Shown: positions 44,236-44,357, counted from the stretch's first letter. The stretch: 64,000 nt of DNA from an uncultured Eubacteriales bacterium (GCA_964627255.1 CAZVIN010000007.1:3051-67050), one strand, 5' to 3'. Notes: generated by a model from the sequence alone, not told the origin. Program-made: numbers and translations.

Positions 44236-44357
44236 AATCAATCAATCAATCAATCAATCAATCAATCTATCAATCAATCTATCTATCTATCTATCTATCT
44301 GTCTATCTATCTATCTATCTATCTATCTGTCTGTCTGTCTGTCTGTCTGTCTGTCTG
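44236..44357. repeat. Compound tetranucleotide microsatellite: (AATC)8-TATC-(AATC)2-(TATC)5-TGTC-(TATC)6-(TGTC)7
   Basis: Read directly on the plus strand. Lies 116-240 nt upstream of the C_GCAxxG_C_C/miaB start and downstream of the recN stop. Confidence 0.95.

What the first reader, a model, noticed from the sequence alone, without database searches (positions are those of the whole stretch)
44236..44357. Compound tetranucleotide microsatellite array upstream of the C_GCAxxG_C_C-miaB operon
This is about 120 bp of three successive perfect tetranucleotide runs that differ by single bases: (AATC)8 and 2, (TATC)5 and 6, (TGTC)7. Such tracts are rare in bacterial chromosomes and are classic slipped-strand mutable elements (compare the CAAT and CCAA tracts of Haemophilus contingency loci). 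Here the tract lies 116-240 nt upstream of a housekeeping operon and just 3' of recN, so a direct expression-switch role is not obvious. Copy-number instability or a lineage-specific element are alternatives.
Basis: seen in the sequence. Interest (0 to 1): 0.75.

Follow-up and report, generated by a model that had tools for sequence, protein, structure and literature searches.

The report
Hypervariable compound tetranucleotide microsatellite in Aminicenantes
The 122-bp run of four-base repeats is real and changes length between natural populations of an uncultured Aminicenantes bacterium, and it is one of at least three such tracts in that genome, but nothing shows that it switches the neighbouring housekeeping genes on or off.

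Summary
Window 44236-44357 is a compound tetranucleotide array. On the sense (-) strand it reads (CAGA)8 (TAGA)6 CAGA (TAGA)5 (TTGA)2 TAGA (TTGA)7. It lies in the 409-nt spacer between recN and the C_GCAxxG_C_C-miaB-H+-PPase gene string of a Candidatus Aminicenantes bacterium.

It is not an artefact. About 17 independent assemblies carry an array at this exact site, and most short-read contigs break in it. It is hypermutable: contigs with 0-7 differences in 900 nt of flanking coding DNA carry very different alleles, for example 30 versus at least 47 units. A sister species (about 90% nucleotide identity) has the array at the same place, with other unit counts and kinds. Relatives with 72-77% RecN identity have a 58-126 nt spacer and no repeat.

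At least two more arrays exist: (TTCA)9 at 55889-55924, which has 9 or 11 copies in different samples, and one upstream of an AbiE toxin-antitoxin module.

The array lies downstream of an extended -10-like element, so it is probably transcribed in a long, C-poor leader with no predicted stable structure. The best reading is a lineage-specific slippage product that is near-neutral, or at most tunes expression gradually. A selected expression dial remains possible. It is a new member of a known kind.

The parts
44236..44357 (-). Compound tetranucleotide array ('block B'). On the sense strand it reads (CAGA)8 (TAGA)6 CAGA (TAGA)5 (TTGA)2 TAGA (TTGA)7, 30 units.
   Evidence: The alleles differ in L001, L002 and L147 and in the sister-lineage loci L085, L158 and L161-L168.
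44184..44235 (-). Decayed T-rich tetranucleotide units that continue the array towards the gene (TTCT TTGT TTAT TTCG TTGA TTGG ...).
   Evidence: Period-4 autocorrelation above 0.55. In the sister lineage the same position holds live (AGTT)n, (TGTT)n and (TGGT)n runs.
44395..44471 (-). Decayed 'block A'. It is orthologous to the intact (AAGT)n...(GGAT)n(GGTT)n(AGGC)n(AGGT)n arrays of the sister lineage. It includes a 20-nt imperfect direct repeat at 44399-44436.
   Evidence: (alignment A1).
44382..44411 (-). Promoter-like site TAGGCA-18 nt-TATAAT with an extended -10 (TGATATAAT). It lies upstream of the array in the direction of transcription. Prediction only.
   Evidence: 10 of 12 matches, with the TG. 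TGNTATAAT occurs only twice in the 64 kb, both times in intergenic DNA. The TGATATAAT is retained in the sister lineage, but conservation there is no higher than the neutral level.
44121..44529 (-). The whole recN / C_GCAxxG_C_C spacer, 409 nt and only 9.5% C on the sense strand. The same spacer is 58-126 nt in relatives with 72-77% RecN identity.
43686..44120 (-). C_GCAxxG_C_C family gene, the first gene downstream of the array.
   Evidence: PF09719 at 8.3e-33. TIGR01909 at 82.6 bits.
42367..43686 (-). miaB. It shares one base (43686) with the C_GCAxxG_C_C ORF: its start codon overlaps that gene's stop codon.
   Evidence: TIGR01574 at 464.5 bits.
39916..42225 (-). H+-translocating pyrophosphatase, the third gene of the co-directional string.
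   Evidence: PF03030 on the identical product. ORF.
44530..46221 (-). recN, the upstream gene. No terminator-like site follows it on the sense strand.
   Evidence: TIGR00634 at 527.7 bits. Terminator scan.
55889..55924 (-). Second live array, (TTCA)9 on the + strand, which is (TGAA)/(GAAT)9 on the sense strand. It ends 3 nt before the likely ATG at 55885.
   Evidence: There are 11 copies in JGI 3300017449. The ENA ERZ27245602 assembly breaks here. The sister lineage has (GTTA)10(GTTG)7 at the same site.
55925..56031 (-). Decayed tetranucleotide units next to the second array (GGTG, GGTT, GGAT, TAGG ...). The spacer is 4.5% C on the sense strand.
55034..55897 (-). Gene for a 283/287-aa protein of unknown function, widespread among Aminicenantes-like metagenome and MAG sequences, with a hydrophobic N-terminus, directly downstream of the second array.
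   Evidence: No Pfam or NCBIfam hit. There are 324 homologues.
56162..58981 (-). 939-aa gene, weakly similar to outer-membrane beta-barrels, upstream of the second array.
   Evidence: PF25183 at 20.6 bits, below the cut-off.

Best explanation
The tract is a genuine, hypermutable compound microsatellite. It is specific to a small clade of Candidatus Aminicenantes: the window species and one sister species.

Shown: arrays of four-base units occupy an intergenic spacer that is only 58-126 nt long in the nearest other relatives. Copy numbers and unit patterns differ between populations whose flanking DNA is identical. The same genome holds at least two further arrays.

Inferred mechanism: slipped-strand mispairing during replication adds and removes units. 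One allele pair differs by a single GATA unit; other pairs differ by tens of units. Point mutations in a unit (GACA to GATA to GATT or GTTA, and so on) are then amplified into blocks of their own. This would produce the stepwise 'compound' structure and the decayed repeats on both sides.

Inferred position in the transcript: the array lies after an extended -10-like element, or in read-through from recN, and before the ribosome-binding site. It would then be transcribed as part of a long, C-poor 5' leader or intercistronic spacer with no predicted stable structure. The distance from the -10-like element to the start codon ranges from 247 to 432 nt among complete alleles.

Inferred consequence: because such different lengths exist upstream of an essentially unchanged housekeeping gene string, length changes appear to be largely tolerated. 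The tract is most likely near-neutral spacer DNA with, at most, a graded effect on downstream expression. It is not an on/off switch.
For: The tract is real and non-random.

Independent recovery at the same site:
- Window species: JGI 3300022548, 3300010284 and 3300017449, ENA ERZ27245602 and Logan SRR5216256.
- Sister species: 12 further assemblies.

Hypermutability:
- The window and L001 have 0 differences in 900 nt of coding flank but carry 30 versus at least 47 units.
- L161, L165 and L168 have 0 differences among them yet carry three different arrays.
- L162 and L158 differ by one GATA unit.
- All sister flanks differ by 7 or fewer of 900 nt.

Lineage specificity:
- No tetranucleotide repeat of 4 or more copies occurs in 80 Aminicenantes recN loci (about 970 kb) or in 59 further C_GCAxxG loci.
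- Synteny is kept in L005-L007, but with a spacer of 58-126 nt.

Other arrays behave the same way:
- Locus 2 has 9 versus 11 copies. The sister lineage has different units at the same site. Relatives with 73-75% identity have spacers of 40 and 90 nt without repeats.
- Locus 3 lies upstream of AbiEi.

Birth and death of arrays: block A is live in the sister lineage and decayed in the window.

Position in the transcript: a promoter-like extended -10 lies upstream, and no terminator follows recN.

No sign of a structured or known RNA: there is no Rfam match, and the leader folds no better than shuffled sequence (z = 0.11).

The distance from the -10-like element to the ATG is 247, 261, 328 and 432 nt in complete alleles.
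Against: No transcription start site, expression data or read-level data could be examined, so 'near-neutral' is an inference from the tolerated variation. It has not been measured.

Long perfect repeats are rare in prokaryotes (Mrazek et al. 2007, as summarised in PMC4679880). Both window arrays persist at orthologous sites across roughly 22-30% divergence at fourfold-degenerate sites. All three loci have their GACA/GATA-type or purine-rich arrays on the sense strand, upstream of a gene. These points fit selection at least as well as neutrality.

Copy numbers taken from short-read assemblies of repeats can be wrong, although each sub-block here is shorter than typical final k-mers.

Three samples share one identical sister allele (L085, L159, L160), so the arrays are not different everywhere.
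Confidence: 0.6

Rival explanations
1. A selected expression dial, or contingency-type element. The array is kept because stochastic changes in unit number alter transcription, mRNA stability or translation of the downstream genes. This would give the population a spread of expression levels, as with the (AGAT)n tract in the Moraxella catarrhalis uspA2 leader or the (TAAA)n tract upstream of the meningococcal nadA promoter.
For: - The tract is hypermutable.
- Live, perfect arrays are retained at two orthologous sites in two species about 10% apart at the nucleotide level.
- The array lies between a promoter-like extended -10 and the start codon.
- At all three loci the GACA/GATA-type or purine-rich arrays lie upstream of a gene and read C-poor on that gene's sense strand. 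Locus 3 also carries a C-rich (ACTC)n run.
- Locus 2 abuts the start codon of a gene next to an outer-membrane-barrel-like gene, and locus 3 precedes a defence-type toxin-antitoxin module.
- Published precedents exist for repeats in 5' leaders and in front of promoters (PMC4679880 citing Attia and Hansen 2006; PMC12721329; PMC2791445).
Against: - The downstream genes at locus 1 are housekeeping genes, and relatives manage with a 58-126 nt spacer.
- No particular length or phase is preserved: the distance from the -10-like element to the ATG is 247-432 nt.
- One whole array block has been allowed to decay in the window lineage.
- No RNA structure comparable to the hmw hairpin is predicted.
- Three loci are too few to test the positional bias, and 35 of the 47 spacers in the window lie between co-directional genes anyway.
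Confidence: 0.28
2. A recombination hot spot. Arrays of the same unit type at different loci recombine, producing real structural variants. Two contigs would be examples: recN-array-AbiE in L147, and ccsA-like gene-array-C_GCAxxG in L165.
For: Two contigs join half of the locus-1 array to unrelated DNA. The partner locus of L147 carries the same (GACA)n(GATA)n arrangement.
Against: In the same or related samples, the AbiE locus has its own, different upstream flank and is not next to recN (L171 and L173). Both odd joins come from MEGAHIT k141 assemblies with ENA ERZ272... accessions. The JGI and Logan assemblies of the window species simply break at the arrays. A chimeric assembly through shared repeats is the simpler reading.
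Confidence: 0.07
3. A promoter inside the array whose spacing depends on copy number. TAGACA (at the interrupting GACA unit) and TAGATT (at the GATA/GATT boundary) are 18 nt apart because exactly five GATA units separate them. Gain or loss of a unit would then switch the promoter off.
For: The promoter scan finds TAGACA-18-TAGATT at 44305..44276 on the - strand, with 9 of 12 matches.
Against: The scan expects 1.5 such hits by chance in this region. In L001 the same two hexamers are separated by 10 GATA units. The sister alleles have no equivalent second hexamer. The arrangement is therefore not conserved.
Confidence: 0.03
4. An assembly or sequencing artefact, or a repetitive protein-coding region. 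The candidate coding region is the 157-aa + strand ORF at 43998-44471, which runs through the array.
For: Short-read contigs often end in the array, and two chimeric joins exist. An open frame does cross the tract.
Against: About 17 independent assemblies from four data sources place an array at the same site, with the same unit order and matching unique flanks. The N-terminal part of the + strand ORF is antisense to the conserved C_GCAxxG_C_C gene. Four-base steps would shift its reading frame, so the observed alleles would destroy it.
Confidence: 0.02

Closest known systems
(AGAT)n tract in the 5' untranslated region of Moraxella catarrhalis uspA2 (Attia and Hansen 2006, as summarised in PMC4679880)
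   Same: Both are tetranucleotide repeats, and AGAT is a rotation of the GATA unit seen here. Both probably lie between the promoter and the start codon. Copy number depends on the strain: 6-23 in uspA2, and individual blocks of 2 to 15 or more here.
   Different: The uspA2 tract has a single unit type and sits in front of a surface virulence protein of a host-adapted pathogen, and its effect on expression has been demonstrated. Here the array is compound, with three or more unit types. It precedes a housekeeping gene string in an uncultured environmental bacterium. The start site and any effect on expression are untested.
(ATCTTTC)n tract in the Haemophilus influenzae hmw1A 5' leader (PMC12721329)
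   Same: Both are intergenic repeats transcribed, or probably transcribed, within the leader, with graded rather than on/off behaviour.
   Different: The hmw repeat acts through a long hairpin with a G-rich partner that is cleaved by RNase III. The leader here is C-poor and folds no better than shuffled sequence (z = 0.11).
(TAAA)n tract upstream of the Neisseria meningitidis nadA promoter (PMC2791445)
   Same: Both are tetranucleotide tracts in a 5' regulatory region that change the spacing between flanking elements.
   Different: The nadA tract works through NadR operators and IHF on either side of the tract. No flanking operator-like elements were identified here, and the array probably lies downstream of the main promoter-like site.
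Tetranucleotide contingency loci of Haemophilus influenzae, with CAAT, GACA and similar units (PMC2651432)
   Same: The unit sequences are the same (AATC is a rotation of CAAT, and TGTC is the reverse complement of GACA). Slippage-driven hypermutability is also shared.
   Different: To my knowledge (not checked in the paper), the classical Haemophilus tracts lie inside reading frames and switch translation on and off. The tracts here are intergenic and cannot work that way.
Intergenic TAACTGA direct repeats of marine Beggiatoaceae (PMC4679880)
   Same: Both are short tandem repeats in an uncultured, free-living environmental bacterium. Both occur at many intergenic sites directly upstream of start codons of unrelated genes, and their function is unresolved.
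   Different: The Beggiatoaceae repeats use one conserved heptamer genome-wide, with 169 sets in one genome. Here the units are tetramers whose sequence differs between loci and drifts within a locus.

Membership tests
Simple-sequence-repeat contingency (phase-variable) locus | A tandem tract of 1-7 nt units that is longer than chance allows | tested here: met
   30 units at 94% matches. Simulated sequences reach at most 16 nt of perfect tetranucleotide run, against 32-36 nt observed.
Simple-sequence-repeat contingency (phase-variable) locus | Unit number is polymorphic among otherwise near-identical strains | tested here: met
   Flanks with 0-7 differences per 900 nt carry very different arrays. 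Caveat: the alleles come from assemblies, not from reads.
Simple-sequence-repeat contingency (phase-variable) locus | The tract lies inside a reading frame, or between the core promoter hexamers, so that a one-unit change switches the gene on or off | tested here: not met
   The tract is intergenic, 115 nt before the start codon and 172 nt after recN. The only hexamer pair that spans repeat units is not conserved between alleles.
Simple-sequence-repeat contingency (phase-variable) locus | The controlled gene encodes a surface, host-interaction or restriction-modification function | tested here: not met
   Locus 1 precedes the C_GCAxxG_C_C redox protein, MiaB and the H+-PPase. Locus 2 (an unknown protein next to a barrel-like gene) and locus 3 (the AbiE module) would fit better.
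Simple-sequence-repeat contingency (phase-variable) locus | Reversible, high-frequency change of expression within a clonal population | not testable with these tools
   This needs reads, cultures or reporters.
5'-leader repeat acting as an expression dial (uspA2 type) | The repeat lies between the transcription start and the start codon | tested here: inconclusive
   The extended -10-like TGATATAAT lies 24 nt upstream of the array, and no terminator follows recN. These are predictions only, and the conservation is no higher than neutral.
5'-leader repeat acting as an expression dial (uspA2 type) | The expression level depends on copy number | not testable with these tools
   No expression data were available.
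Leader hairpin formed by a repeat and processed by RNase III (hmw type) | The repeat pairs with a complementary region of the leader to form a long, stable hairpin | tested here: not met
   The leader's minimum free energy is -35.6 kcal/mol, against -36.0 +/- 3.7 for shuffles (z = 0.11). The sense strand is only 9.5% C.
Known structured RNA (riboswitch, leader, small RNA) | A match to a curated covariance model | tested here: not met
   There is no Rfam match at E <= 1 in 44000-44650 and none at gathering score anywhere in the window.

The most novel reading that the evidence does not exclude
This Aminicenantes clade may have acquired a genome-wide set of eukaryote-like, long-lived compound microsatellites in its leaders and intercistronic spacers. 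They could serve as a stochastic expression-tuning system (a 'phasome') in a free-living, uncultured bacterium, one that reaches even housekeeping operons. Alternatively, they could be the visible signature of a lineage-specific change in replication or repair that makes four-base slippage unusually frequent. Either reading would extend repeat-driven variability well beyond the host-adapted pathogens in which it is known.
Probability: 0.2. Interest if true: 0.65.

Novelty: new member of a known kind. Interest (0 to 1): 0.48.

Why it matters
Hypermutable short repeats in bacteria are known mainly from host-adapted pathogens, where they switch surface and restriction genes. Here the same kind of tract shows microsatellite-style birth, growth and decay in an uncultured environmental phylum. 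It occurs at several loci, including one in front of housekeeping genes.

If the arrays tune expression, bet-hedging through repeats would be more widespread than thought. If they are neutral, the clade is a natural case of unusual slippage that could be traced to its repair genes.

There is also a practical lesson. These arrays break short-read assemblies and probably produce chimeric contigs, namely recN joined to AbiE in L147 and a ccsA-like gene joined to C_GCAxxG in L165. Genomes of this clade binned from metagenomes should be checked at such sites.

Tried and rejected
- **Known RNA families.** There is no Rfam match in the spacer at E <= 1, none in the whole window at gathering score, and no tRNA or tmRNA.
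- **RNA structure of the presumed leader.** It is no more stable than shuffled sequence.
- **Conservation of the promoter-like island as evidence of function.** The unique spacer islands are about 77% (mean column identity) identical between the two species. That equals the 70-78% seen at fourfold-degenerate sites, so I did not count it as support.
- **Promoter inside the array (TAGACA-18-TAGATT).** It is not conserved between alleles.
- **The + strand ORF through the repeat (43998-44471).** It is antisense to a conserved gene and cannot survive four-base steps.
- **The alternative junction in L003/L147 as a real insertion of an AbiE module after recN.** Other contigs from the same samples show the AbiE locus with its own (GACA)n(GATA)n array and a different upstream flank. 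A chimeric assembly is more likely.
- **A phage or mobile origin of the array.** (GACA)4(GATA)4 has no exact match in 2.9 million viral contigs.
- **More arrays next to the window.** About 10 kb of extra flank on each side of the window, in other assemblies, holds none.
- **Literature.** No paper in the library holds both 'Aminicenantes' and 'simple sequence repeats'. A broader five-term search listed no Aminicenantes paper among its top ten.

Full report
**Observation.** Window 44236-44357 reads, on the + strand, AATCx8, TATC, AATCx2, TATCx5, TGTC, TATCx6, TGTCx7 and then TGTG. Tandem Repeats Finder gives period 4, 30 copies, 94% matches and no indels. In 200 first-order Markov simulations of the window, the longest perfect tetranucleotide run was 16 nt. 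The window has runs of 32 and 36 nt.

All neighbouring genes are on the - strand: recN (44530-46221), a C_GCAxxG_C_C gene (43686-44120), miaB (42367-43686) and an H+-pyrophosphatase (39916-42225). Searches confirm these identities. On the sense strand the array reads (CAGA)8 (TAGA)6 CAGA (TAGA)5 (TTGA)2 TAGA (TTGA)7. It lies 172 nt after the recN stop and 115 nt before the next start codon.

The period-4 signal continues on both sides, at 44184-44392 and 44395-44471. Most of the 409-nt spacer is therefore live or decayed tetranucleotide repeat. The spacer is only 9.5% C on the sense strand, unlike the other spacers in the window.

**Organism and lineage specificity.** The best matches to RecN in the genome collection are Candidatus Aminicenantes genomes at 77, 76 and 72% identity. 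These relatives keep the gene order recN, C_GCAxxG, miaB, pyrophosphatase. Their recN/C_GCAxxG spacer is only 58-126 nt and holds no repeat.

No tetranucleotide repeat of four or more copies occurs in the 80 Aminicenantes recN loci (about 970 kb). None occurs in 59 further C_GCAxxG loci from metagenomes.

The one exception is a sister lineage, first seen as L085 on a 284-kb contig. Its C_GCAxxG protein is 92% identical to the window's, its coding DNA 90-91% identical, and its fourfold-degenerate sites 70-78% identical. That places it as a separate species. Its orthologous spacer is 592 nt long and holds two array blocks:
- Block A: (AAGT)7 ... (GAAG)3 (GATG)2 (GTTG)4 (AGGC)3 (AGGT)5.
- Block B: (ACAG)14 ... 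(AGAT)4 (AGAC)4 (AGAT)10 (AGTT)7 (TGTT)3.

A unique island separates the two blocks and aligns to window 44360-44420. The window's array is block B. The window's block A has decayed.

**Hypermutability.** Exact-protein look-ups recovered the window species from five other assemblies:
- L001 (JGI 3300022548) starts inside the array. It reads at least 15 GACA, 11 GATA, GACA, 10 GATA, GATT, GATA, 8 GATT. That is at least 47 units, against 30 in the window. The 900 nt of downstream coding DNA show no difference.
- L002 carries a variant GTTT unit.
- L004/L149 and L148 end inside the GACA run.

The sister species was recovered from 12 assemblies, 11 encoding the identical C_GCAxxG protein and one (L158) a close variant. 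Their block B alleles range from (ACAG)2 (ATAG)10 (TTAG)5 (TTTG)5 in L168 to a GACA/GATA mosaic of roughly 300 nt in L162.
- L162 and L158 differ by a single GATA unit within an otherwise identical complex pattern.
- L161, L165 and L168 have identical flanks and three different arrays.
- All these flanks differ by at most 7 of 900 nt.
- Block A varies as well.

One allele is shared by three samples (L085, L159, L160), so change is fast relative to substitution but not instantaneous. The caveat is that these are assembled alleles. Each sub-block is shorter than typical final k-mers, but read-level confirmation is needed.

**Other arrays.**
- *Locus 2.* (TTCA)9 at 55889-55924, which is (TGAA)9 on the sense strand, ends 3 nt before the probable start of a conserved 283-aa protein of unknown function. 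That gene lies downstream of a 939-aa barrel-like gene. JGI 3300017449 has 11 copies with identical flanks. The ENA assembly breaks there. The sister species has (GTTA)10(GTTG)7 at the same site, and its contig starts there. Relatives with 73-75% identity have spacers of 40 and 90 nt without repeats. The spacer is 4.5% C on the sense strand and is flanked by decayed units.
- *Locus 3.* This emerged from an odd contig. L003/L147 joins recN-(ACAG)15(ATAG)11 to an AbiEi/AbiEii module that has no match in the window. The same AbiEi protein occurs on small contigs from the same samples. Two of them (L171, L173) show its own upstream region: (ACTC) at least 9, (GACG)2, (AGAC)9, (AGAC)9, (AGAT)6. This locus uses the same GACA-then-GATA arrangement. 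L147 is therefore most simply an assembly chimera through shared repeats.
- *Possible further locus.* L165 in the sister species joins a ccsA-like gene and a (GAA)10 tract to the 3' half of block B. It looks like the same kind of chimera and hints at further loci.

About 10 kb of additional flank on each side of the window holds no further array. The density is therefore roughly two arrays per 84 kb of contiguous sequence.

**Anatomy and likely mechanism.** A promoter scan finds TAGGCA-18 nt-TATAAT with an extended -10 (TGATATAAT) at 44411-44382 on the sense strand, 24 nt upstream of the array. No terminator-like site follows recN. TGNTATAAT occurs only twice in the 64 kb, both times in intergenic DNA, and it is kept in the sister species. 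Conservation of the unique islands (about 77%) is no higher than that of fourfold-degenerate sites, so this is a prediction and not evidence. At locus 2 neither a promoter nor a terminator is predicted in the spacer.

The simplest reading is that the arrays are transcribed inside long, C-poor leaders or intercistronic spacers. The presumed leader has no Rfam match and folds no better than shuffled sequence (z = 0.11).

The distance from the -10-like element to the start codon is 247, 261, 328 and 432 nt in the four complete alleles. No preferred length or phase is visible. Given this tolerance, the housekeeping nature of the downstream genes, the short spacers of relatives and the decay of block A, I favour a lineage-specific slippage product that is near-neutral or at most a graded modifier (confidence 0.6).

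A selected expression dial is the main rival (0.28). It is supported by the rarity of long repeats in prokaryotes (PMC4679880), by the persistence of live arrays at two orthologous sites, and by the sense-strand position upstream of a gene at three of three loci. The remaining rivals are recombination at the arrays (0.07), a spacing-dependent promoter inside the array (0.03), and an artefact or coding repeat (0.02).

**Comparison with known systems.**
- The closest case is the (AGAT)6-23 tract in the Moraxella catarrhalis uspA2 leader (Attia and Hansen 2006, via PMC4679880).
- Next come the (ATCTTTC)n hmw1A leader of Haemophilus influenzae, which needs a hairpin and RNase III (PMC12721329), and the (TAAA)n tract upstream of the meningococcal nadA promoter (PMC2791445).
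- The unit sequences match those of Haemophilus contingency tracts (PMC2651432). To my knowledge those tracts act inside reading frames.
- The intergenic TAACTGA repeats of marine Beggiatoaceae (PMC4679880) are the nearest environmental parallel.

Membership as a contingency locus fails on position (the tract is neither in a frame nor between promoter hexamers) and, at locus 1, on gene class. Mutability is met. Effects on expression are untestable here. No paper in the library holds both 'Aminicenantes' and 'simple sequence repeats', and a broader five-term search listed no Aminicenantes paper among its top ten.

**Verdict.** This is a real, hypervariable, lineage-specific compound microsatellite and one of several in this genome. 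It is a new member of a known kind. Interest is moderate (0.48). It would rise if read-level heterogeneity and length-dependent expression were shown.

Noticed in passing
window 55889-55924 (and decayed units to 56031): A second live tetranucleotide array, (TTCA)9, abuts the start of a conserved 283-aa protein of unknown function. It has 11 copies in another sample. The sister species has (GTTA)10(GTTG)7 at the same site. Relatives with 73-75% identity have no repeat there.
   Followed up: yes
L171 1-170 and L173 1-160 (upstream of the AbiEi gene); also L170 and L172: A third repeat locus, probably in the same organism: (ACTC) at least 9, (GACG)2, (AGAC)9, (AGAC)9, (AGAT)6, about 340 nt upstream of an AbiEi/AbiEii toxin-antitoxin module. 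All contigs carrying this module are short and start at or in the array.
   Followed up: partly
L003 4864-4980 = L147 11558-11680: The MEGAHIT contig k141_62280 joins recN-(ACAG)15(ATAG)11 to the AbiE locus. This is most likely a chimera through arrays shared by two loci. The alternative, a real recombinant, is not excluded.
   Followed up: partly
L165 about 1360-1853: A sister-species contig joins a cytochrome c assembly-like gene and a spacer holding a (GAA)10 trinucleotide tract to the 3' half of the locus-1 array. It is probably another chimera, and it points to further repeat loci.
   Followed up: no
window 44399-44436: An imperfect 20-nt direct repeat (ATTTGATTGCCAACTTATCT, 1.9 copies). 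It overlaps the -35-like hexamer of the predicted promoter and is also recognisable in the sister species.
   Followed up: no
window 62439-62466: A perfect 13-nt tandem duplication (CAATAATAGGTGA, 2.2 copies) in the roughly 590-nt spacer between the divergent M24 peptidase gene and a radical SAM gene. It is possibly an operator. A T-rich low-complexity stretch lies at 62266-62329.
   Followed up: no
window 44121-44529 and 55898-56161: Both repeat-bearing spacers are strongly C-poor on the sense strand of the flanking genes (9.5% and 4.5% C). Nine other sampled long spacers have ordinary base composition. It is unclear whether this reflects a transcription-linked or a replication-linked bias.
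   Followed up: partly
L161 about 2700-2720 and L167 about 560-640: JGI scaffolds of the sister species carry runs of N exactly at the arrays. The scaffolder bridged what the assembler could not cross.
   Followed up: no
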